DNA of 64,000 nucleotides from Schmidtea polychroa (taxonomy: Eukaryota), in NCBI GenBank assembly GCA_044892525.1, contig CM097887.1:121870397-121934396 (forward strand), read 5' to 3'. Below are positions 19,881 through 48,363 of the stretch, in pieces (position 1 is the stretch's first letter; each line of letters opens with the position of its first letter). Both the position numbers and the translations under genes were made by a program. A model generated the notes under the pieces. That model had not been told where the DNA came from and did not search any database. It worked only from the letters and a program-made list of their open reading frames with translations.

Positions 19881-21737
19881 AAATAAATGTTTTTAAATAG
19901 CTTTTTACACGTTATATATATGAATTTTTGTTGTTAAATTAAATAATTATTAAATTTTAATATTTTAAAATCTCCTTTAAATTAAAAATGGTTTATTATT
20001 TAAATAATATATAGTAAAACGAATGTTTGAGTGACGCTGTCTTATTTAAAGAGTCTTTCAAGATTTTAAAATTTTTAATTAAAGAACAAATTTTTAATTA
20101 TATTTTATTTCGTTTTTACAAAAATTCAATAATAATTAGGTTAAATATAAAATTTTTTATAAGTTTCTGCAACAATAATTGACACTTTGATGGTCACAGC
20201 AACCTCTTGTGGTCAGCACTTGTATTCTTATTAAGGTCATGGTGGTCATTCGTAATCAAGGGTAATACATTTTATAGAATGATTGAAACCAGGTATATAT
20301 CATCGACTACATTTTTTTAAAAAATGTAAAAATTATATTTTGTTTTCCAATGCAAAACATATAAAACACGTAACTGCCAACCATGCCTGTAAGGAATTGG
20401 AATGAAGATTATGTAATTTTAAAATGTCATAATGGAATTTTGAGTTTGTTCAAAGAAATGATACTTCTGAAATTAAATGGTAGCTATATAAAACGAGGCA
20501 AAGTTTGATTGAAAGTGATATTTAAATGACGGAGTGGTCTATAATCTTTTCCGGCAATTTAATATGTTACTCGGAGAGAAGACAAATTTGTTCTTGCGGT
20601 TCGTAATGGAATCTGTTCAAATTCAATATGCAATTCTGTAAAAATAACACAAATCCAGGAAAAATAAATAATTATAAAAAATCAGTAAAACTATTATTGA
20701 AAAATTTGGAAACTATTTTCATAATTCTGGCATCATCAAAAGAAAGTTGATATTTTCTAGGATATTTATTTACACAAGCTCGTATCATTTCATAATCTCA
20801 AGATCAAACGCCGCTTTGAAGTATAACTTTAGTAGTGTTTCCTAAATTTAGTTTTTAACAGAAAAAAGCAAACCGACTATTTTTTCACATGTGATTTTCT
20901 TCTTTTCTTTTATCATTGCGCTTAATTTGGGTTGGCAGGGGGAAATATTATTCAAGCAAAATGTGGAGAAATTATTTTTCCGTAAAATCTTTTAACCTCA
21001 AGCGATGTGTTTTTTATTCTTGTGGAGATAAACTGCAGGTAGTTCTAAAAGTTTAAACAATTAAATCAAAAAAAACCCAAGTGTTAATCAGAACATAAGT
21101 TAAAATAATATTTTCCTTGTAATATTATTAGTTTATATTTCAATTATATTCATAATTTGGATCCTTCTCTCAGTAATTCGATTATAAGACGAAATAATAA
21201 TAATCTGACTATATAATTTAACTTATATGAGATTATTTANNNNNNNNNNNNNNNNNNNNNNNNNNNNNNNNNNNNNNNNNNNNNNNNNNNNNNNNNNNNN
21301 NNNNNNNNNNNNNNNNNNNNNNNNNNNNNNNNNNNNNNNNNNNNNNNNNNNNNNNNNNNNNNNNNNNNNNNNNNNNNNNNNNNNNNNNNNNNNNNNNNNN
21401 NNNNNNNNNNNNNNNNNNNNNNNNNNNNNNNNNNNNNNNNNNNNNNNNNNNNNNNNNNNNNNNNNNNNNNNNNNNNNNNNNNNNNNNNNNNNNNNNNNNN
21501 NNNNNNNNNNNNNNNNNNNNNNNNNNNNNNNNNNNNNNNNNNNNNNNNNNNNNNNNNNNNNNNNNNNNNNNNNNNNNNNNNNNNNNNNNNNNNNNNNNNN
21601 NNNNNNNNNNNNNNNNNNNNNNNNNNNNNNNNNNNNNNNNNNNNNNNNNNNNNNNNNNNNNNNNNNNNNNNNNNNNNNNNNNNNNNNNNNNNNNNNNNNN
21701 NNNNNNNNNNNNNNNNNNNNNNNNNNNNNNNNNNNNN

Positions 21738-22583
21738 GGGATTGCCTCTGACTGGCATTTATTCGGTTTCTTTTTCTATCGCGTCTGTGTGCGCGGTCTG
21801 GTTAGACCGAATATTGTTGGTGTGGATTGATATTGTAGGTAATTGTTAATTGTGTTTTTTTTGTGAATTGATTGTTATATTGATATTGTAGAAATTATAG
21901 AATTTGGTTTTTTGTTTGAAATGTGTAAATGTTCGAAAGTGGAGTTTTGGAATCAAAATTTGTAAATTCCTGTTTTTAAAAATGGCTTCAGGTGTGAAAT
22001 GTGATCCTTCAGTTGAAGAAGAAGGATTTGATTACAAATTTATTAAAGCTTATGATGTTCCAAGCCAAGATCTTATTTCTTATTTCGATGAAACCAGTGA
22101 ATTCATTGAAAATGGCAGAAAATTTGGTGGAATATCAAGAAGTGGAATTATTTTGACGGCTTATTTAATGAAACATTTTAAAGTTGGTCCAAACGATGCG
22201 ATTGAGACAATTAAGGAAAAGTCAGTTATATGTCCAAATGATGGATTCAGGAAACAATTAAAGATATATTTCAACATGAATTGCAGTGATGAAATCAACA
22301 AATGCGCAAATACAGTTTCTCAAGCTCAATTTAAGTTATCAGCATCTTCAAAAGATTTAGTTCAATTCAAATTTAGAAATTGTCGATTTTTATTATTCGA
22401 CAATTCAAGTGTTGTTGAGCACAGTAAAATGAAAGCTTCGAAAGCAATAAATGAAAGCACAATTTGCAATGAGGAAATACTTATCGAAGCTCTTCCTTGG
22501 ATTGATAGCAGCAATGCAGACGGGGAAATGAAAATGACAGTGTTAAAGAATAAAATTTTAATGACTTATTTGGATCTTATTCA
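21738..22583 (+). repeat. 5' LTR (about 865 bp; start hidden in a gap)
   Basis: Matches 26141-26988 apart from a 21-bp indel, a 1-nt T-run difference and at least three substitutions; ends in CA just before the PBS; AATAAA near its 3' end. Confidence 0.88.
21982..22530 (+). pseudogene. DUSP12/YVH1-like dual-specificity phosphatase fragment inside the 5' LTR, catalytic HC motif missing
   Basis: [35 protein letters not shown], then remnants of the C-terminal Zn domain (NCRFLLF...[14 protein letters not shown]). The VLVHC segment before GxSRS is absent. No introns. Confidence 0.7.
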
Positions 22584-22601
22584 TGGTAGCAGAGCGTGGT
22601 T
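22584..22601 (+). promoter_or_regulatory. Primer-binding site complementary to initiator tRNA-Met
   Basis: TGGTAGCAGAGCGTGGTT directly after the LTR-terminal CA; complementary to an animal-type tRNAiMet 3' end (...AACCACGCUCUGCUACCA). Confidence 0.85.
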
Positions 22602-22797
22602 CCGGCTAGCCAGCCGGAACAAGGTATTATTTATATTTTTTAAGAATGATATTTGTATTGTATTATATACATGTAATAGGTATCGTATGTTTATTATATT
22701 ATATGTAGATTGGCTGTATTATATTTTTATTATATTTGTTATTTTTGAAACATTTCCCCTAGGGCCTGCCCTCCCTAACCCCATTAGAGGTGGATTG

Positions 22798-23251
22798 GCG
22801 CGGGTATTTGTCAAAACATTAATAGGGAAGACAATTACTCTCGAAGTTGAATCTAGTGACACGATAGGAAATGTAAAAGCGAAAATACAAGATAAAGAAG
22901 GTAGTCCACCTGACCAGCAACGATTAATTTGCGCGGGAAAACAATTAGAAGATGGGCGAACATTATCTGATTATAATATTCAAAAGGAGTCTACTTTGCG
23001 TTTAGTTTTGCGATCGAGGGGTGTAATGCAAATATTCGTGAAGACATTGACAGGAAAAACAATAACTTTGGAAGTAGAATCAAGTGATACTATTGAAAAT
23101 GAAGGCTAAAATTCAAGAAAAAGAAGGGATACCCCCAGGGCGACAAAGACTTAATTTTGCCGGGAAAGTATTAAAAGATGGCCTAACGTTATTAGATTAT
23201 AACGTTAGGAAAGAAGCCACGGTACATCTGGTTTTGGGTCTGGCAGGGGGA
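22798..23251 (+). pseudogene. Two tandem divergent ubiquitin units (22798-23025; 23026-23251 with a 2-nt deletion) fused to the Gag N-terminus
   Basis: [33 protein letters not shown]...[30 protein letters not shown], then [25 protein letters not shown] / [13 protein letters not shown]...HLVLGLAGG. Unit 2 is 226 nt, i.e. 228 minus 2. Confidence 0.92.
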
Positions 23252-25178
23252 AGTCCAGTATCAGATGCGGAGTTCGAGGCAGGTTACAAGAGACGAACCG
23301 GGTGGAAGATTTCGTTAGGGCGTCTACGTAACCGGGCCTTAGGAGATGGATCGGACCCGGGGGAAGATCAAAGGAGAATGGAGGCATACGAAGATAAGTA
23401 TGAGGAAGTGATCAACGAATTGGAGGAGCTGAGGAATAATGCTCGGGAGTTAGGGCGGGAGAAAGAAGAAAAGGAAATTGAGGCAGATCTGAAACGATTA
23501 GAAGCGGATTTCAGCAGAATCGGTGATCTGGTCCTCACGCAGAAGGAAGAGAGTTTTAGAGTGGAGTCGCGGAAGGGCACAGAAAAATCATTTAGGAGCG
23601 AAGAGCCCAATGAGAAACAGAAGTGCATAATGGGTTTGAAACCCTTGCAGTTGCCGGTATTTAATGGGAAGGTAATGGAATATCCTGGATGGAGGGCAAT
23701 TGTGAGAGCCTGCATCGAGGACACGGATGAGCCGAGTGAAAGAAAGTACTTGTACCTGAGACAGTACTTGGAAGGGAAGCCGCTGCAATTAATTGCCTAT
23801 ATTGGATATGGCTCGCAGGCTTTCGAGGCGGCGATGAAATTACTCGATGAAAGGTATGGGGGGACCAGAAAGATCCTATTCCATGATGCTGGATGCGGTG
23901 CAGAGGTTCTTCCCAGTGAGGCTCAACGTCTTGGAGGACCTAGAGCGGTTTGAAGAGCTGCTAGGAAACCTCATCCTAAATTTCAAGGATCAGAAGAGGG
24001 AAGGCGAGTTGAACAACGGAATGTTGTATCACCAACTGCTGAAGAAGCTTCCAGAGACCATGCTGATTCAGTGGTCACGCCATTGTGATTCGGGGAGAGA
24101 GGGAAATGTGCAAACGCTAGCCGAGTGGATCAAAACGGAAGCTAATAGGCATCGGCAAGCAATGAGCATTCTGTTTGGAGAAGGGCGGGCAAAGGGTAGA
24201 ACTGTCGCCCCAACAACTAACTTTGGAAATGCGAAGAAGAGCACGAATTTTACGGATAGTAGGCGCAAGATAGAGGTTAGCAGTGCTCGAAAAAAGGAAC
24301 CAATTTGTGTGAAATGTGGTTCAGAACATTATTTAAATCAATGCTCAGAGTTCCTAAAGCTGACTGTTAAGGAACGAAATGAGTTTGTGACCAAGAAGCG
24401 GCTTTGTTACAATTGTCTTACAACAGCTCACATGGTTAGAGAATGCGAAAAACCGAGCTTTTGTAAGGACAGAGATTGTACTCGAAAGCATCACAATTTG
24501 CTCCATGGCTCAGAGAACAAAGTTGATGGAGATCAAGAGCCGAGCAATGAGAACACATCAATGATGACGGTTCAAGATACACAGAGGAAGAAGATGTATG
24601 TTCCTTTACGAACGATTACAGCAAAGTTGATTAATAAAGGAAAGGAGGTCAAGATCAACGCATTGCTAGACGACGCAAGCAATGTTAGCTATATTAGCGA
24701 TTGGGCGGCGCAAGAACTGGGGTTGGGAGGACAGTGGCAAAGCACTCCAGTTGGCGTGATTGGTGGACAATCACAAATGTTGGAAACGAAGCCGGTGACG
24801 GTATTATTGGCAAGCAACAATAACAATTTAAAGGTAAATTTGAACGTCCTGGTGGTAAAAAAGGTCACTGGAGACCTGGGAATGTGTAACTGGAGGAAGT
24901 TATCGGCGAAATGGAAGCATCTGCGATATATAAACTTCCCGGTTATGAATACAAGGACGCAGATTGATGTATTGATTGGTTCTGATTACCCATATCTACA
25001 TCGATCTATTCGCGAAGTAACAGGAGCAAAGCATGAACCAATTGCAAGGTTGACGCCCCTCGGATGGACATGTCTTGGTAGGATTGCAAGGAATCAAGTT
25101 CCAAGATGTTCGCATTTGGCTCAGAGTTATTTTGCGGTAACGGAAATGTTAAAACGCCGGAGAAATGATTATTCATGA
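23252..25178 (+). pseudogene. Bel/Pao gag-protease region (one +1 frameshift in a G-run near 23860; truncated before RT)
   Basis: [11 protein letters not shown]...YPGW (DUF1759-like); CVKCGSEHYLNQC, CYNCLTTAHMVREC, CKDRDCTRKHHNLLH; protease ALLDDASNVSYI. The two ORFs join if one G is removed from tatgggggg. Confidence 0.88.
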
Positions 25179-26079
25179 TGTAGATAATTCTGAAGAAATG
25201 GATTATATTAAAGAATGGGATGAAAATGATGAAACACATGAAAACAAAAATGCTAGCGAAGATGGAGATAGTGAAAGCAATGAATGTGGGAATTTACAAT
25301 CTAACGATATTATAAATCAAGATGAAATAGAGCAAAATCGAGTCAATGAGAACGAGAATCAGTATTCTGAATTTGTAAAAAATAATACTGAACTATTAGA
25401 CAACGATTTTGATAAAGGAGACCAAGTTACAGCAGATGAATTAGAAAATATTGTCAAAAGTCACAATCAAGAAGAAAATTTTGAAAGTAAATATGATGAA
25501 ACGGAAGTAGATGTGTCAGACAAGAATGAAAATTATAATAGTCATGTAGGCACAGAGGTTGTCGACATTAATGTTATCGAAAGACCGAATTCTTTGGTAG
25601 AAGATAATTTTCAAAACATGGAAGACTTAGTTAATGTTCAAGCGGATTTTGCTTCCTCAGAAAATCATTTAGAAACTGATCGAATTATGCCAGATTCTGA
25701 GACCAATGACAGTGATCTTAGAGTCGATATTGTTAAAGATCATACGTCCGACACAGCTAAAGATTCTGAACAAAATACATTCACTCAACCAACGTCTGCT
25801 TTAGATGATATCATTGAAGACTATTCACCTGGTTCCCCTTCATTAAATGAAATGCAACAGGGAAAAGTGGGGGCTATTGAGTTGGCGAAACATGCAGGAA
25901 GGATAATGGAGATATTGCAGCGAAACAGAATGAAAAGTGGCAGGGGCTTGGCCGAGTATGGCGATGGTGGGAGGAGAATCCACCATGATGTATCCAGAAA
26001 GGTGCGTGGTGCGGCGGCCTATACCATAGCAAGATGGGTGTGTTGGAGAGAGGCAAAAGGAAAGGTTCCCCTGAAGTAA
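25165..26079 (+). CDS. Acidic (D/E/N-rich) ORF of unknown origin occupying the pol position; the last ~70 codons are element-like GC-rich sequence
   Basis: 304-aa ORF; AT-rich acidic block at 25165 to about 25860, with an abrupt compositional switch from the GC-richer Pao sequence on both sides. Confidence 0.5.
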   Translation: MIIHDVDNSEEMDYIKEWDENDETHENKNASEDGDSESNECGNLQSNDIINQDEIEQNRVNENENQYSEFVKNNTELLDNDFDKGDQVTADELENIVKSHNQEENFESKYDETEVDVSDKNENYNSHVGTEVVDINVIERPNSLVEDNFQNMEDLVNVQADFASSENHLETDRIMPDSETNDSDLRVDIVKDHTSDTAKDSEQNTFTQPTSALDDIIEDYSPGSPSLNEMQQGKVGAIELAKHAGRIMEILQRNRMKSGRGLAEYGDGGRRIHHDVSRKVRGAAAYTIARWVCWREAKGKVPLK

Positions 26080-26121
26080 TTGGGTGGTTGATCCGCTAGA
26101 AGGGATCAAGGAGGGGGGAAA

Positions 26122-26989
26122 TGTTTCGACCAGTCAGAGGGGGATTGCCTCTGACTGGCATTTATTCGGTTTCTTTTTCTATCGCGTCTGTGTGCGCGGT
26201 CTGGTTAGACCGAATATTGTTGGTGTGCGCACACAGACGCGAGCAATGGATTGATATTGTAGGTAATTGTTAATTGTGTTTTTTTTTGTGAATTGATTGT
26301 TATATTGATATTGTAGAAATTCTAGAATTTGGTTTTTTGTTTGAAATGTGTAAATGTTCGAAAGTGGAGTTTTGGAATCAAAATTTGTAAATTCCTGTTT
26401 TTAAAAATGGCTTCAGGTGTGAAATGTGATCCTTCAGTTGAAGAAGAAGGATTTGATTACAAATTTATTAAAGCTTATGATGTTCCAAGCCAAGATCTTA
26501 TTTCTTATTTCGATGAAACCAGTGAATTCATTGAAAATGGCAGAAAATTTGGTGGAATATCAAGAAGTGGAATTATTTTGACGGCTTATTTAATGAAACA
26601 TTTTAAAGTTGGTCCAAACGATGCGATTGAGACAATTAAGGAAAAGTTAGTTATATGTCCAAATGATGGATTCAGGAAACAATTAAAGATATATTTCAAC
26701 ATGAATTGCAGTGATGAAATCAACAAATGCGCAAATACAGTTTCTCAAGCTCAATTTAAGTTATCAGCATCTTCAAAAGATTTAGTTCAATTCAAATTTA
26801 GAAATTGTCAATTTTTATTATTCGACAATTCAAGTGTTGTTGAGCACAGTAAAATGAAAGCTTCGAAAGCAATAAATGAAAGCACAATTTGCAATGAGGA
26901 AATACTTATCGAAGCTCTTCCTTGGATTGATAGCAGCAATGCAGACGGGGAAATGAAAATGACAGTGTTAAAGAATAAAATTTTAATGA
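26122..26989 (+). repeat. 3' LTR with the second DUSP12-like copy (ATG 26407); end hidden in a gap
   Basis: Begins TGTTTCG after the PPT; contains the hairpin ccagtcagagg/cctctgactgg; near-identical to the 5' LTR. Confidence 0.88.
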
Positions 26990-27459
26990 NNNNNNNNNNN
27001 NNNNNNNNNNNNNNNNNNNNNNNNNNNNNNNNNNNNNNNNNNNNNNNNNNNNNNNNNNNNNNNNNNNNNNNNNNNNNNNNNNNNNNNNNNNNNNNNNNNN
27101 NNNNNNNNNNNNNNNNNNNNNNNNNNNNNNNNNNNNNNNNNNNNNNNNNNNNNNNNNNNNNNNNNNNNNNNNNNNNNNNNNNNNNNNNNNNNNNNNNNNN
27201 NNNNNNNNNNNNNNNNNNNNNNNNNNNNNNNNNNNNNNGATAAGACGAAAGTGAATATAATACTTTTAAATTGATCGACAGGGGGAGTTCTTCAAACAAT
27301 GTAATTCAGAAAATACAAACCAATTAATTAATTAATGAAAATCAATAAATAATTTCAATTAGAAACAAAATTAGAAACAAAAATTTTTTTCCCACAAATT
27401 CAGTCGAAAATTAAATTAAAGGAGATGACGGACACGGAAGTATTCTATAAAAGAAGCCA

Positions 27460-31139: not shown

Positions 31140-32213
31140 TTATTTTTTCTCAATAGTATCAGCACTGGAATCGGAGAATAGGTTAAGGAAATCAATTGGA
31201 ATCGGAAAAATTATTGTGGAGTTCTTTTCGTCTGAAATGCTTCGTAATGTTTGGAGATATCTTAGCTGTAGGGCAATGGGACAATCACTTATTTGAATTG
31301 CAGCAGCTTTAAGGGCGACAGAAGCTCGTTTCTCTCCTTCAGCAGCTATTACTTTTGCCTTTGCTTCTCGGGCAGCTTCTGCTTCAGCAGCCATGGCTCG
31401 TTGGAGTTGGATTGGTAATCTCACATCCTTTATGTCTACCCTTTCAACTTTTACACCCCAGGTTTCAGTCGCTGTATCTAAACACCCTTGCATGTTTGAA
31501 GCAATTTGTTCTCGTTCTGCTAATAATTGATATAAATCAACTGTTCCTAACACATTTCTCAATGTTGTTTGAGCTAAGAGTCTTGTTGATCTATTGGCAT
31601 CTTCGACATTAACAACAGACATAATGGGATTGAATATTCTGTAATAAACAACAGCGTCAACAGCAACAGTTACGGAGTCTTTTGTTAAAACTTCTTGAGT
31701 CGGTACATTGAATGTGAATGTTCTTAAATCTACGAGTTTCATTGAGTCTAAGCAAGGTAAAACAAATACAAGACCTGGGCCTTTTGGCTGTTTTGATATG
31801 AGCCTACCTAATCGAAAAATTACAGCCCTTTCATATTGGGCGACAACTTTCAAGCAAGCAAACAATGAAAACGGAAACGTTATTGCTGCTGTAAGATACG
31901 ACAAAGCTTGAATGGCCGATTCGCATCCTGACATGGCCGCGTTGTATCCCGCTTCTCCAGTTTGATTTTCAACGTTTTCAAACACCAAAGAAAAACCTCG
32001 ATTGGTCGTTGGCTGCGAAGGCGCTCCGCTATTAGCTGAACTGGATGTGTTTTTGTTGATCGAACTGGAAACTTTTGATTGTTTCGTCGATTTTCCATTG
32101 TTGTTGAAATCTATTTTACTGTTTGTTCCATGCTCCAGCATCGGTTGGCTATCGCTGAGATTTGTGTCTAAGTTTTCGTCGGCCATCTCCTTAGAAAATG
32201 ACACCGTGTGCAT
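31140..32213 (-). CDS. Stomatin/band-7 (SPFH) family protein, mec-2/stomatin-like, intronless
   Basis: Hydrophobic hairpin TFPFSLFACLKVV; QYERAVIFRLGRL; GPGLVFVLPC; DLRT; VLTKDSVTVAVDAVVYYRI; LLAQTTLRNVLG; RAMAAEAEAAREAKAKVIAAEGE; ALQLRYLQTL. Confidence 0.95.
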   Translation of the reverse strand: MHTVSFSKEMADENLDTNLSDSQPMLEHGTNSKIDFNNNGKSTKQSKVSSSINKNTSSSANSGAPSQPTTNRGFSLVFENVENQTGEAGYNAAMSGCESAIQALSYLTAAITFPFSLFACLKVVAQYERAVIFRLGRLISKQPKGPGLVFVLPCLDSMKLVDLRTFTFNVPTQEVLTKDSVTVAVDAVVYYRIFNPIMSVVNVEDANRSTRLLAQTTLRNVLGTVDLYQLLAEREQIASNMQGCLDTATETWGVKVERVDIKDVRLPIQLQRAMAAEAEAAREAKAKVIAAEGEKRASVALKAAAIQISDCPIALQLRYLQTLRSISDEKNSTIIFPIPIDFLNLFSDSSADTIEKK

Positions 32214-32855
32214 TAGATTTTAGCGCTCAGTGAATAAAACCCATCCGATTTTCGTATGTCACTGAAATTTCAAACAAAACAGAGAGATTTTGTTTTAATT
32301 GATGATAATCAGAAAATTTGTGCACTTTTGAAAAATTTTATTGTAATCAATAAGCAAGTCGAATAAGAAGCGATATCTTTTAATTTCACAGTGGAGTAAT
32401 GGGAGAGAGAGCAATTTATTTAGTCGACTAATGAAGTAGAGAAATGCAGATAGGCAAAAACGGTTACTGTATTACTGGGTTTCATTGTCTTTAGAGAGCA
32501 GAAAAGAATTTCTCCTAGTTTTGTCACTGCAATATTACTTTTTTCTGTTTCATCCAGTAGGGCTAGTGAAAATTTGCACCAATACAAATACTGGTATTTG
32601 ACGATAACAATATTTTGTGTATCTAAATTTCTAAACTTTTGCCATTTCAATGGTAAAATAAATATTTTTTTGAAAAACTTTTTTGTTCGCTTTATTGTTT
32701 CAAAAAAAATCTTGTTTTTTGTTTGTTTGAATTAATTTTAAATTTATTTTAACTGGTGAAAAATTTGATTTAGTAATTAAATTTTAAAATTTTCAAATAA
32801 ACGTTTTTAATTTAAATAATAAAAAATAATTTATTATTATAAGAATTTCTTTCGA

Positions 32856-43741: not shown

Positions 43742-44870
43742 TAAAGAGTTCATACTGTATAACTTATACACTAGTGTTAGGTTTTTGATAGTAGTTGTCA
43801 ACACTTTCATAATTTTATGTCTCAATCCAACTTTTTGTAAATCGGCGTGTAGGTGAATTTAAATAGGTAGCGAAATATAGGTTAATAAAAATATATTAAT
43901 TACAATACAAATTGTAATGATTAAAGCAACTAATGTGTGTGTTGCCTTTCTGAAGTAAGAGATCGGTCATTTCAAAACGTCCTGATAGTGTTTATGAGCA
44001 TCAACGTTGGTTCTAACAAATTCCGACAACTATTGAAAAAGGGAATGAAGATTTTCCGTAAATGTAAATGCGATAAGAATGGTCCAGAATTTCATTAATA
44101 TTTTGTCCTGAGTCCCTTTTCTCAGAAATTAGTAAATAAGTTTGGGTAGAACAGTATGAAAATATATAAATAAGATTTTGCTTCATAATACATTTCATGG
44201 AATACGACTCCATTATTTTCGTGTTGTTTGAATATTCGATTTCGATGGAGCAGTCTCCGTTATCTGAGCATAATTATTGGTTTGCTTTTGACATATCCAT
44301 TGACGAGACGTTCTGTGATACGACGAGCAGTAGACATATCAACAGCCACTTTACAAATTTTATCATTTTTAATATACATTTGATATAGAGGTGAAGCGAT
44401 TCATAGTTCCACAAATTATTATGATTCCAGAGTTTTAAATACATTTTATTTTCTTTTTTAAATTTGTAAAAATGAGTAGAAGGATGTGAGCCCGTCAGAT
44501 ACAAGGGGGGGGGGGGGGGTATATCGTTTATGTAATAATGACCGATTACGTAATACATACACTGTTGCAAACTGACCATTCGCGTGGCTATTACTTAATG
44601 AAAAGGTCAGTAGCTAACTAACCTCACGCGTGACCTTTACGTCATACATACATTGTTACTCACTGACCAGTCACGTGCTAATTACGTCATATACAAACCT
44701 GTTTCTAACTGACCACTTATTGATGACTCAATATACTGACCATGGTAATTGTGTCGTCATACTTAGTGGTCACTGGTTGCTAACTGTAACCACACACTTT
44801 CAACTTTTTTTATTATTTAAGTTGAGAAGTTGATGCTCACGCATTATCCGAAGAAGAAGTATGTTCTTCA

Positions 44871-45944
44871 TTGGAGACTTCTCAAAATGTTTGTTTCTCT
44901 TGGTGTTTCTCTGTGTTACGTAACAAAATCTTTAACCCCCTTCCCCCTGTAACTCTCCGTAACAAATTTCAAGACCCCCTAGCCCATAAGTGTTATAATA
45001 ATACTATGATCTTTAAAGAGTACATCGATACAGACACTTCTCTGAGAGCTGATTCAACCAATAATCTAGATAAGAACTACTTTAAGCTTTTAAATAATAG
45101 TCTTTATGGAAAATCAGTGGAAAATCTTAAAAAACGGATGAATTTAAGATTATGTAATTCTGCTGAAAAAATGACTACATATTCTTCAAAGCTGTCTTTT
45201 AGAAAGTGTATCAAAATTGATGATAATCTGATTGCAGCACATCTGAATAAAGATTTGATTTGTTTAGATAGACCTAGTTATATAGGTCAAACAGTTCTAG
45301 ATCTATCGAAATTAAGGATGTATCAGATTCAGTATCTTGAATTAGCTAAATATCGAAATCAATTCAATTGTAGGATTGACATTGTTGCTGGCGACACTGA
45401 CTCTTTCTTCCTTGAAATTAAGAATTGCAAGTTAAGTAGACTTCTACCTGCAATGATTTCAGATAATCTTTTGGATACTTCATATTATGACTCTAACCAT
45501 CCATTGTATTCAAGAAATCTTGACTCAGTAATAGGTAAATTCAAAGATGAGAGTAAGGGACTTGGATATAAAGAATGGGTTTTCTTGAGACCAAAATGCT
45601 ATAGTCTTTTAGGTGAAACTGAAAGTAATAAAGCAAAAGGAATTACTTTGAAAGGAATTGAGATAAAACATCTTTCTTATCTTGACTGTTATGAGAACAA
45701 TAAAATCTTTTCTGTTCCTCAAACTCGAATAGGAACTCGAAATCATCAGTTGTTTACGTTTAAGAATTGTAAAATTGCGTTAAGTAACAACGATGATAAA
45801 CGACACTGGGTTGGTAAAAATAAAAGTTTTGCATACGGGTATAATTTAGATGTCAATCAAGATGATGTAAACCAAGATGATGCCAACTATGAAGATGATC
45901 CAGAATTGATCGAGATTGATTTTAATGATCGAGATTTTATATGA
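44871..45944 (+). pseudogene. Polinton-type family B DNA polymerase, C-terminal half only (homology from about 44995; the 5' codons are foreign sequence)
   Basis: KLLNNSLYGK (motif B), YIGQTVLDLSKLRMY, AGDTDS (motif C; usually YxDTDS), GKFKDE, LRPKCYS, KAKGI. No exonuclease domain or motif A. Confidence 0.85.
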
Positions 45945-46615
45945 AATAAATTTTTGTATTTTGAAAACTGTCTTTTTTATTATTTAATTAAATTAATTTA
46001 AAAATTATAGCTTTGGTTTGAGAATAAATCTGTTTGTTTCAAAAATAATCGTAATAAGTAATGCCAACTATGAAGATGACCCAGAATTGATCGAGATTGA
46101 TTTTAATGATCTAGATTTTATATGAAATAAATTTTTGTATTTTGAAAACTGTCTTTTTATTATTTAATTAAATTAATTTAAAAATTATAGCTTTGGTTTG
46201 AGAATAAATCTATTTGCTTCAAAAGTAATTTTATAAGTAATCGTAATAAGTAATGCCAGCTATGAAGATGATCCAGAATTGATCGAGATTGATTTTAATG
46301 ATCTAGATTTTATATGAAATAAATTATTGTATTTTGAAAACTGTCTTTTTATTATTTAATTAAATTAATTTAAAAATTATAGCTTTGGTTTGAGAATAAA
46401 TCTGTTTGTTTCAAAAATAATCGTAATAAGTAATGCCAACTATGAAGATGACCCAGAATTGATCGAGATTGATTTTAATGATCTAGATTTTATATGAAAT
46501 AAATTTTTGTATTTTGAAAACTGTCTTTTTATTATTTAATTAAATTAATTTAAAAATTATAGCTTTGGTTTGAGAATAAATCTATTTGCTTCAAAAGTAA
46601 TTTTATAAGTAATCA
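45880..46615 (+). repeat. Four tandem ~180-192-bp units (starts 45880, 46061, 46253, 46433), each carrying the PolB stop-codon region and AATAAA
   Basis: Unit begins atgcca(a/g)ctatgaagatga; alternating A/B variants (tgtttgtttc vs tatttgcttc) suggest a duplicated dimer. Confidence 0.92.
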
Positions 46616-46631
46616 TGCTTTGATTTATATA

Positions 46632-46632
46632 A

Positions 46633-46713
<81 letters not shown>

Positions 46714-47070
46714 TTATTATTAATATTATTTTAATATTATTATTTTGTGGACTGATGGCTAAGTGGGAATTTACTTTTTGATTTTTGGTTTTGAAATTAG
46801 GTATGAGGTTCAATTCCAAGTATGGGCGACTTTTTTCGAAAATTAATTTTTACATGTTATTTTTAATCGTGCTTTGATTGATATAGATTATTATTATTAT
46901 TATTACTAAAATTATTACTATTATTTTTTATTATTATTAATATTATTTTAATATTATTATTTTGTGGGACTGATGGCTAAGTGGGAATTTACATTTTGAT
47001 TTTTTGTTTTGAAGTTAGGTATGAGGTTCAATTCCAAGTATTTTTTCAAAAATTAATTTTTACATGTTAT
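46632..47070. repeat. (ATT)n microsatellite followed by a ~220-bp tandem duplication
   Basis: Long att run at about 46635-46715; ttttgtgg(g)actgatggctaagtgggaattt...ggttcaattccaagta occurs at about 46743 and about 46960. Confidence 0.85.
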
Positions 47071-47306
47071 TTTTAATATACATCGAATCAGCATGCTTTA
47101 ATTGCTATAAATTGAAATTTTCATAAAAATCGGTTAATTATTTTTACTTAAAGGTTCATAGTATTTTCTCACCTACTGGTATAAAATGCAGTAAACAATC
47201 ATTAAATAATAATTGTTATTAATTTTCAGACCATTTGGGGATTTATTTTATTATACGGTATTAGTACTATGATTAGTACTAGTATTATTTTATTATACGG
47301 TATACG

Positions 47307-47307
<1 letters not shown>

Positions 47308-47343
<36 letters not shown>

Positions 47344-47392
47344 CTGTCGCTGTAGTCGTAGTCGTGGTCGTGGTTGTGGTCGTGGTCGTGAT
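47308..47392. repeat. (TAG)n and gtcgtg-type simple repeats inside the right arm of the mini-Polinton
   Basis: Directly visible. Confidence 0.85.
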
Positions 47393-48363
47393 AGTACTGG
47401 ATCCTTATATAGACCGCCAGTGTCCTAGAAGTGTGTGTTGTACAGTTAGCAACAGTGTGTTTATTATGTAATCGGTCATTATTATGTAATCGATATACCA
47501 CCCCCCTTTTGTATCTGACGGGCTCACATCCTTCTACTGAAATGCGATCGATATTTCCATCACGTCAACTTTGAACACTGATAGCACAGAAATATATGAA
47601 GAATAAAAAGAGTATAAATATATGAAGAATAAAAAGAGTAATATGTCTGATATAGATGTTAAACGGTTCCATGTCCCACAAATTGCAACAATTCAAGAGT
47701 TTTGAGCACATTTTTTGTGTTGGTTGAATAGTGACTGAAGAACGTAAAACTTAGACATAACATTAAGTTGAGTCAAAATCAAGCACATCCAGGAATAATT
47801 AAACAAATAAATAGAGTTTACTCAACACAAAAAATAATAAACATAAAAATAAACTAATATGAAACAAAAGCAAGTACGACATGAAATCCATTCAAAACAC
47901 AACATAGATGCACAATAATAGTAGACAATTTTGAATTATTGGCGATGAGGATAGATAAGGATTGGAAATTAGAAAGATTTACACAAAATAATGTTAGATA
48001 TAATATAAATTAGGTGAGTGTAAGTATTTAGAATATTTAATCCTTACTTTTAAATTCAAATATAAGATAAAATTAATAATATAATAATTAATTCTAAAGA
48101 GTGCAATTAATATTTCATGTAAAAATTTTTCCTACTAAACGCATTAATGACCATTTTGAACGATTTTAAAATCCCCAATATATTTTATGCTTTTGCTTCA
48201 CTAATCTCTAATAAACATCATTGTGATTTCCATTGTACTGACGTTATTTTAAAAGACAAAAGTATCATTTGTATTTAAGCCAAAGAAGTCATTCAATCTA
48301 ATACGTTATTTTCAAGAATGGTGGCAGACATCATATCACCGGATTTGGATGTTACATAAAAAT

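What the first reader, a model, noticed from the sequence alone, without database searches (positions are those of the whole stretch)
22798..23300. Di-ubiquitin fused to Pao Gag: first junction G76V-like, second junction GG
Seen: Ub1 ends LRSRGV directly before Ub2's Met; Ub2 is more diverged (I44 to N, R72/R74 lost) and ends LAGG directly before Gag. A 2-nt deletion in Ub2 and a 1-nt G-run insertion break the frame in this copy. Known: G76V blocks deubiquitinase cleavage, whereas ubiquitin-GG fusions are cleaved co-translationally; some pestiviruses insert ubiquitin as a processing signal. Inference: the ancestral element may have used host DUBs to generate a defined Gag N-terminus or to tune its stability. 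G76V may simply be decay.
Basis: partly seen in the sequence, partly recalled or inferred. Interest (0 to 1): 0.75.

Follow-up and report, generated by a model that had tools for sequence, protein, structure and literature searches.

The report
Retrotransposon re-captured ubiquitin ahead of Gag
A young, multi-copy jumping-gene family reads through scraps of captured host genes into a conserved ubiquitin unit that likely lets a host enzyme cut its capsid protein free; the second ubiquitin was copied in recently from the host's own polyubiquitin gene, and its Gly-to-Val change is likely a harmless variant, not a switch.

Summary
Real. The window holds a broken copy of a young BEL/Pao LTR family; 18 of 19 sister copies have Ub1-Ub2-Gag in one open frame. 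That frame starts inside the 5' LTR, in mosaics of spliced host mRNA, and crosses the tRNA primer site. The two ubiquitins differ in origin and constraint. Ub1 and the front of Ub2 are a recent ~320-nt copy of host polyubiquitin units 2-3, laid into an older single ubiquitin. Ub1 evolves near neutrally (dN/dS ~0.8); V76 is a minority inherited allele (3 of 28 unbiased copies). Gag-proximal Ub2 is constrained like Gag (~0.24). Three lineages with Gags only 31-36% identical, one not found in this genome, keep L-x-L-x-G-G at the Gag junction while residues 72/74 vary. Best reading (0.55): that ubiquitin is a processing site that frees Gag from junk leader. Caveat: this family's tail lacks R72 and R74, which resembles a published DUB-resistant mutant. 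Cleavage and expression are untested. The scan noted this family before in at least six other windows of this genome; the origin of the di-ubiquitin, the selection contrast and the outside lineage were not in the notes I saw.

The parts
21719..22583 (+). 5' LTR (start inferred from the 3' LTR offset); ends ...TTATTCA; AATAAA at 22549, so R is probably long and U5 very short
   Evidence: the LTR pair differs at 3 substitutions plus gaps over the compared 854 columns
21982..22583 (+). LTR-borne cargo ORF: host DUSP12-like phosphatase fragment with in-frame deletions, catalytic VLVHCLAG motif missing in this copy; in frame with Ub1
   Evidence: Pfam DSPc; host gene L155/L156; motif present in other copies; translation
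22584..22601 (+). Primer-binding site, 18/18 complementary to the 3' end (with CCA) of a host tRNA-Met(CAT); translated as part of HGSRAW
22604..22630 (+). Palindrome GGCTAGCC and splice-donor-like AAG|GTATTA, shared by autonomous and non-autonomous families (dimerisation and poly(A)-suppression roles are inference)
   Evidence: AAG|GT site in 86 of 86 chromosome-1 copies
22631..22797 (+). AT-rich leader, variable between copies but stop-free in the element's frame
22798..23025 (+). Ub1: recent copy of host polyubiquitin unit 2; no Met1; L73S and G76V in this copy; weak or no protein-level constraint
23026..23251 (+). Ub2: first ~32 codons from host unit 3, remainder the element's older ubiquitin (I44N, R72G, R74A, ends LGLAGG); purifying selection; 2-nt deletion at 23101 in this copy
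23252..24587 (+). Pao Gag (DUF1759, three Cys/His knuckles); 1-nt insertion near 23862 in this copy
24588..25073 (+). Aspartic protease
   Evidence: (Asp_protease_2, below curated cut-off)
25151..25852 (+). Acidic tail standing where RT-RH-IN would be; matches part of a 2.2-2.4 kb contig in three RNA-like runs, loose on both sides, so likely another captured host mRNA
   Evidence: tables 7-8; no Pfam hit
26108..26121 (+). Polypurine tract
26122..27008 (+). 3' LTR with the same DUSP cargo (end inferred from the offset to the 5' LTR)

Best explanation
This is a broken copy of a young non-autonomous BEL/Pao retrotransposon whose single reading frame runs from captured host-gene scraps in its LTR through two ubiquitin units into Gag, and the Gag-proximal ubiquitin likely serves as a cut site where a host ubiquitin-type protease would free Gag from that junk leader. 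Shown: the anatomy, the frame, the recent origin of Ub1 from host polyubiquitin, and selection on Ub2 but little or none on Ub1. Inferred: RNA start in the LTR and translation from the cargo; template switching onto co-packaged host mRNA as the capture route; cleavage after L-x-L-x-G-G. G76V is a single-codon allele in the spare unit, likely shuffled among copies by recombination and without a dedicated function.
For: Frame: 18 of 19 sister copies open across Ub1-Ub2-Gag. In all 86 chromosome-1 primer-site hits, 69 have ubiquitin downstream; 49 of those 69 have an in-frame, stop-free leader (mean stops 0.04 versus 8.2 and 11.2 in the other frames, over the 51 in-frame copies); 61 of 86 have 100 or more open codons upstream versus 1 and 0. 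Cargo is junk kept in frame: dN/dS 0.73, catalytic motif deleted here, at least 8 Pfam families over 26 of the 27 cargo types scanned; one cargo lacks five host introns. Selection on shared alleles: Ub2 0.21-0.25, Gag 0.13-0.18, protease 0.13-0.21, autonomous-family Ub 0.27, Ub1 0.78-0.80 (Ub1 versus Ub2 Fisher p=0.016). Origin: Ub1 95-100% identical in DNA to host unit 2 in most 38-nt windows and Ub2's first 76 nt to unit 3, while host units are 79-86% alike; single-ubiquitin copies L039, L085, L128 exist. Junction: LRLCGG, LGLAGG and LSLKGG in lineages with 31-36% Gag identity; rough chance of keeping GG in all three 0.01, of L73+GG 0.001. An R74-only change stays DUB-cleavable (PMC11503651, passages), which fits the autonomous tail.
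Against: Ubiquitin with R72A+R74T is DUB-resistant (PMC11503651, passages); this family's Ub2 tail is G72/A74 and the outside lineage's is S72/K74. I44 is lost or changed in all three lineages. No cleavage or protein evidence. Expression is not shown: X1 contigs cover Gag and protease at depth about 13-74, but a single-copy host intron reaches 4-12 in that run and the family is multi-copy. Ub1 may be mildly constrained: pN/pS against the host unit is about 0.45-0.49, the older clade has shared dN/dS 0.48 (not significant), and R72 is invariant in 56 of 56. First ATGs of cargo frames show no single context. The chance estimate rests on three lineages and a hand-chosen core set; shared-allele counts can include segmental duplicates.
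Confidence: 0.55

Rival explanations
1. The Gag-proximal ubiquitin is not cut. It is a domesticated folded N-terminal domain of Gag (folding aid, or insulator between junk leader and capsid), with I44, R72 and R74 lost so that host ubiquitin machinery ignores it.
For: Purifying selection on the fold with loss of I44 and of tail arginines; double-arginine loss blocks DUBs; V76 copies transposed although, on this reading, neither junction is cut.
Against: A flexible tail with no partner should not keep L73-G75-G76 in three lineages where only 28-64% of non-core sites are kept; autonomous R72 is invariant in 61 of 61.
Confidence: 0.25
2. Ub1 was selected because it restored an efficient DUB site once Ub2's tail had degraded, and G76V is a functional variant that blocks release or makes a degron.
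For: 54 of 59 distinct Gag-anchored copies carry Ub1; R72 and Ub2's Met are invariant; all 12 V76 alleles use one codon and lie in the youngest clade; pN/pS against host about 0.45.
Against: In the young clade Ub1 shared dN/dS is 0.78-0.93 while Ub2, Gag and protease stay at 0.13-0.24; F45C, G53E, H68R, L73S and others also segregate; V76 is not clustered on the Gag tree (11 changes versus 11.2 shuffled).
Confidence: 0.1
3. All ubiquitin here is passenger cargo like the DUSP piece; only the open frame matters.
For: Cargo, leader, tail and Ub1 all keep frame with dN/dS 0.7-1.0; ubiquitin mRNA is abundant.
Against: Ub2 and the autonomous Ub reject neutrality (p=1e-4 and 1e-5); the position before Gag is fixed in three lineages.
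Confidence: 0.05
4. The leader is an intron and Gag is made from a spliced RNA or from Ub2's Met, so the read-through frame is incidental.
For: Donor-like site in 86 of 86 copies; Ub2's ATG is invariant.
Against: The leader is stop-free in one frame across 15 sequence clusters and many lengths (four of these clusters include part of Ub1); the nearest AG sites would shift the frame (read); single-ubiquitin copies lack that Met.
Confidence: 0.05

Closest known systems
BEL/Pao LTR retrotransposons (Belpaoviridae; PMC8742986 whole text; PMC3118150 passages)
   Same: LTRs, 18-nt PBS, PPT, Gag-PR-RT-RH-IN in one frame in the autonomous partner, 5-bp target duplications
   Different: ORF starts inside the LTR and crosses the PBS; primer is tRNA-Met rather than the Arg/Gly named in the profile; ubiquitin before Gag ('ubiquitin' has 0 hits in PMC3118150's main text)
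LTR-mediated retroposition and maize Bs1 (PMC5131818, passages)
   Same: Template-switch capture of spliced host mRNAs, multi-gene mosaics, Pao elements among the vectors
   Different: In the passages read, retrocopies are internal and flanked by LTR-element sequence; here cargo sits inside both LTRs of autonomous and non-autonomous copies and is kept in frame with Gag. 'Ubiquitin' has 0 hits there.
Ubiquitin insertions in cytopathogenic pestiviruses (PMC13517609, passages; the processing role is recalled knowledge)
   Same: Host ubiquitin mRNA recombined into a polyprotein directly before a functional protein, in one or two copies, repeatedly
   Different: There sporadic and near-identical to host; here fixed, old, diverged to 38-55 of 76 residues, and re-captured once more
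Host ubiquitin fusion precursors and the G76V reporter (recalled; G76V stability toward DUBs in PMC11503651 passage)
   Same: Ub-GG-X layout; V76 blocks cleavage
   Different: V76 here is a minority allele of an internal, Met-less unit, not an N-terminal degron
Burro giant gypsy elements of planarians (PMC6431247, passages)
   Same: LTR elements with host-like domains in a long polyprotein
   Different: Gypsy superfamily; the passages name MATH, BIR, ankyrin and others, not ubiquitin itself

Membership tests
BEL/Pao (Belpaoviridae) | Paired LTRs of 0.2-1.2 kb, TG...CA, target-site duplication | tested here: met
   LTR pairs mostly 98-100% identical; 5-bp duplications in L064, L071, L074, L081; the window's own outer flanks were not examined
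BEL/Pao (Belpaoviridae) | 18-nt PBS complementary to a host tRNA, and a PPT | tested here: met
BEL/Pao (Belpaoviridae) | Primer tRNA-Arg or tRNA-Gly (ICTV profile wording) | tested here: not met
   primer is tRNA-Met(CAT); a variant trait, family placement rests on the protein domains
BEL/Pao (Belpaoviridae) | Pao Gag (DUF1759) and PR-RT-RH(Peptidase_A17)-IN order | tested here: met
   window: DUF1759 and protease only; same-Gag lineage L069 has RT, L070 has RT/RH/IN pieces; partner family L056 has all
Autonomous element | Intact RT, RNase H and integrase in this copy | tested here: not met
   replaced by an acidic tail; three frameshifts
LTR-mediated retrocopy | Host introns absent from the captured piece | tested here: met
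   coatomer-like cargo of L039 lacks five introns of host L165; the DUSP and ubiquitin sources have no intron in the captured stretch, so they are uninformative
LTR-mediated retrocopy | Microsimilarity at switch points | tested here: inconclusive
   the ubiquitin tract begins and ends inside homologous ubiquitin sequence; cargo junctions not scored
DUB-cleaved ubiquitin fusion | Full 76-residue fold ending GG in frame before the partner | tested here: met
DUB-cleaved ubiquitin fusion | R72/R74 tail recognised by canonical DUBs | tested here: not met
   Ub2 has G72/A74; the autonomous family keeps R72 only; Ub1 is canonical in most copies
DUB-cleaved ubiquitin fusion | Cleavage after G76 | not testable with these tools
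   needs lysate assay or proteomics
G76V-type degradation signal | Fixed, selected uncleavable ubiquitin at the N-terminus | tested here: not met
   V76 in 3 of 28 unbiased and 12 of 55 distinct copies; the unit is internal and near neutral

The most novel reading that the evidence does not exclude
A clade of BEL/Pao elements, present in more than one animal genome, domesticated ubiquitin long ago as a host-cleaved release site before Gag. This freed the front of the polyprotein from selection, so the LTR became a translated, exchangeable cassette of host mRNA mosaics, and the elements can refresh the ubiquitin from host polyubiquitin mRNA. The tail has evolved to be cut but not conjugated, possibly by a host protease that reads only L-x-G-G.
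Probability: 0.4. Interest if true: 0.85.

Novelty: new variant of a known kind. Interest (0 to 1): 0.68.

Why it matters
If the Gag-proximal unit is cut, a retrotransposon has relied on the host ubiquitin system for polyprotein processing over deep time, which I could find described only for sporadic pestivirus mutants. It would explain how an element tolerates translated host-gene mosaics ahead of Gag, making it a running exon-shuffling device with many dated natural variants. The three natural tails (LRLCGG, LGLAGG, LSLKGG) also make a direct test of what deubiquitinases need. The G76V contrast itself matters little.

Tried and rejected
First placed the LTR end near 22752 and read the leader as an intron; rejected after 3' LTR comparison and the tRNA match. 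A homologue search with ubiquitin in the query was swamped by polyubiquitins. Without it, none of 24 and none of 14 Pao relatives listed PF00240; reading sequences showed a ubiquitin tail in one, P0121, and none in the other 23. The CCT-like and DUSP host sources gave no intron test. No RNA holder on record was listed; no joint from the donor-like site appeared in contigs, which proves nothing. Twenty further ubiquitin loci, picked by hand from the 150 listed, showed Pao copies, host genes and one decayed unit before a different sequence (L187), no second superfamily; that sample favours near-canonical ubiquitin. V76 is not one clade on either tree. The 50%-cluster HMMER search never ran; the Atlas gave no usable hit for Ub-Gag and did not answer for the tail. 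No complex or fold prediction was run. Nine answered paper searches found no report of ubiquitin-Gag in BEL/Pao; subscription papers, Repbase Reports and supplements were not seen.

Full report
Observation. Ub1 (22798-23025) ends LRSRGV before Ub2's Met; Ub2 (23026-23251) has I44N, R72G and R74A and ends LGLAGG before a DUF1759 Gag. Compared with three other copies, this one lacks 2 nt at 23101 and has single extra bases near 23862 and at 25151. It belongs to a multi-copy family: 527 candidates, the 40 scored 96-100% identical. Of 19 sister copies translated, 18 have Ub1, Ub2 and the start of Gag in one open frame; one has a stop in Ub1.

Anatomy. The element is about 5.3 kb. The 5' LTR ends at 22583 and is followed by an 18-nt site fully complementary to the 3' end of a host tRNA-Met(CAT) found in tandem arrays. 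After Gag come a protease, an acidic tail, a polypurine tract and the 3' LTR; there is no RT, RNase H or integrase. A partner family shares the primer-site motif and has a 2189-codon frame with one ubiquitin, Gag, RT, Pao RNase H and integrase. Relatives with this window's Gag type also carry RT (L069) or RT, RNase H and integrase pieces (L070). LTR pairs are mostly 98-100% identical, with 5-bp target duplications where they can be read, so the family is young. No call named the organism; a planarian flatworm is my recalled guess, and earlier scan notes guess a flatworm.

The frame starts in the LTR. In this copy an ATG at 21982 opens a DUSP12-like fragment that runs through the LTR end, the primer site and an AT-rich leader into Ub1. 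I took all 86 chromosome-1 hits of the exact motif (of 217 genome-wide). Sixty-nine have ubiquitin downstream, 51 in frame, and 49 in frame with a stop-free leader; among the 51, mean stops are 0.04 versus 8.2 and 11.2 in the other frames. Sixty-one of 86 have at least 100 open codons upstream in that frame, versus 1 and 0. Seventy-seven cargo frames from 96 loci fall into 27 types; 26 were scanned and hit DSPc, proteasome, EAP30, TCP-1, Ras, LIM, adaptin and cofilin families. One cargo lacks five introns of its host gene, and the spliced joints also stand in a run that covers the introns evenly, as DNA would. AATAAA or ATTAAA lies within 70 nt of the LTR end in 76 of 86 copies, mostly 35-53 nt, versus 5-17 in control windows. 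I infer that the cargo lies in a long R region, where strand transfer can pick up host mRNA and copy it to both LTRs; this follows the template-switch model in PMC5131818 (passages).

Origin of the di-ubiquitin. The host has a three-unit polyubiquitin gene whose units are 79-86% alike in DNA; a five-unit gene also exists and was not compared. Beyond its first codons Ub1 matches unit 2 at 95-100% in most 38-nt windows (lowest 87%), and the first 76 nt of Ub2 match unit 3 at 95-100%. The rest of Ub2 matches no unit (55-79%) but matches single-ubiquitin copies of the element (76-89%) (nine copies shown). Three such copies were found among 59 distinct Gag-anchored sequences, 54 of which are di-ubiquitin. 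So one tract of about 320 nt of host message was recombined into an older, diverged ubiquitin, and the first junction began as the host's own LRLRGG-M.

G76V. Position 76 is G in 43 and V in 12 of 55 distinct copies, always by the same codon. That set is enriched for copies like the window's; the unbiased chromosome-1 count is 3 of 28. V76 is confined to the youngest clade but scattered within it (11 changes on the Ub2-Gag tree versus 11.2 shuffled), as recombination or recurrence would give.

Selection. I counted alleles shared by two or more distinct copies, which passed through replication. dN/dS is 0.80 for Ub1, 0.22-0.25 for Ub2, 0.18 for Gag, 0.21 for protease, 0.73 for DUSP cargo and 0.78 for the tail; in the autonomous family it is 0.27 for ubiquitin and 0.69 for the leader. 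Ub1 does not differ from neutrality (p=0.49); Ub2 and the autonomous unit do (p=1e-4, 1e-5). The contrast holds within the young clade (Ub1 0.78-0.93, Ub2 0.24, Gag 0.13). Against full neutrality of Ub1: pN/pS against the host unit is about 0.45-0.49, the older clade gives 0.48 (not significant), and R72 never varies.

A third lineage. The nearest database relative, P0121 (43% identity over 1232 residues), has a cluster mate, P0160, a complete Pao polyprotein with about 158 residues of leader, a ubiquitin and Gag. Its integrase region found no near-identical match in this genome (top hits 53-54%, at most 60% on partial hits; 106 of 1895 candidates scored). The three Gags are 31-36% identical. 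Their ubiquitins keep 38-55 of 76 host residues (62 for the re-captured Ub2), and the junctions read LRLCGG, LGLAGG and LSLKGG (one single-ubiquitin copy, L128, has a private G75R). A rough estimate for keeping GG in all three by chance is 0.01. The other 23 relatives show no ubiquitin, and the 14 list none.

Mechanism. Because translation likely starts in junk cargo, Gag needs separating from it, and a conserved ubiquitin fold ending L-x-L-x-G-G at exactly that point is best read as a site for a host ubiquitin-type protease (0.55). The difficulty is the tail. A review reports R72A+R74T conjugates resistant to DUBs, an R74N change still cleavable, and G76V stable (PMC11503651, passages). The autonomous tail fits cleavage; this family's Ub2 does not obviously, so an uncut folded domain remains a real rival (0.25). 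Expression is not shown: X1 and X2 are spliced-RNA-like and X1 contigs cover Gag and protease, but background from many copies could explain that.

What is known. The parts have precedents: BEL/Pao structure (PMC8742986, whole text), mRNA capture by LTR elements (PMC5131818, passages) and one or two ubiquitins inserted in pestivirus polyproteins (PMC13517609, passages). Nine answered searches found no ubiquitin-Gag fusion in BEL/Pao; PMC3118150, PMC5131818 and PMC12440569 have no main-text hit for ubiquitin. Supplements, Repbase Reports and subscription papers were not seen. The scan had already noted this family in at least six other windows of this genome; those notes are not independent support, and their claim of a second superfamily was not confirmed here.

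Verdict. A real and unusual variant of a known kind of element. The important unit is the Gag-proximal ubiquitin; the V/GG contrast is mostly incidental. Interest 0.68.

Noticed in passing
window 25151-25852: The acidic tail matches a 2.2-2.4 kb contig in three RNA-like runs with loose ends on both sides; likely a captured host mRNA of no Pfam family standing in place of pol.
   Followed up: partly
L080, L081, L128 leaders: An eIF4A-like fragment (label recalled, not scanned) is inserted in frame in the leader between primer site and ubiquitin.
   Followed up: no
L085 cargo: Ends in a MsrB-like fragment (label recalled, not scanned).
   Followed up: no
L031, L036, L057, L013: The same unidentified cargo occurs in both autonomous and non-autonomous families, implying RNA co-packaging and exchange between them.
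   Followed up: partly
G000:C1:79.33-79.39 Mb (L153): Tandem array of tRNA-Met(CAT) genes with a 454-bp period; 1239 pattern hits genome-wide.
   Followed up: partly
L051-L090 flanks: Many copies are inserted in (AAT)n microsatellites, suggesting target preference.
   Followed up: no
L187: A Ub2-like unit ending LGLAGC precedes a different downstream sequence; possibly a further decayed lineage.
   Followed up: no
window 31140-32219 (-): Intronless stomatin/Band 7 ORF of 359 codons.
   Followed up: partly
window 44475-47538 and 45880-46614: Inverted arms about 3 kb apart enclosing 180-192 bp tandem repeats; possibly a DNA transposon.
   Followed up: no
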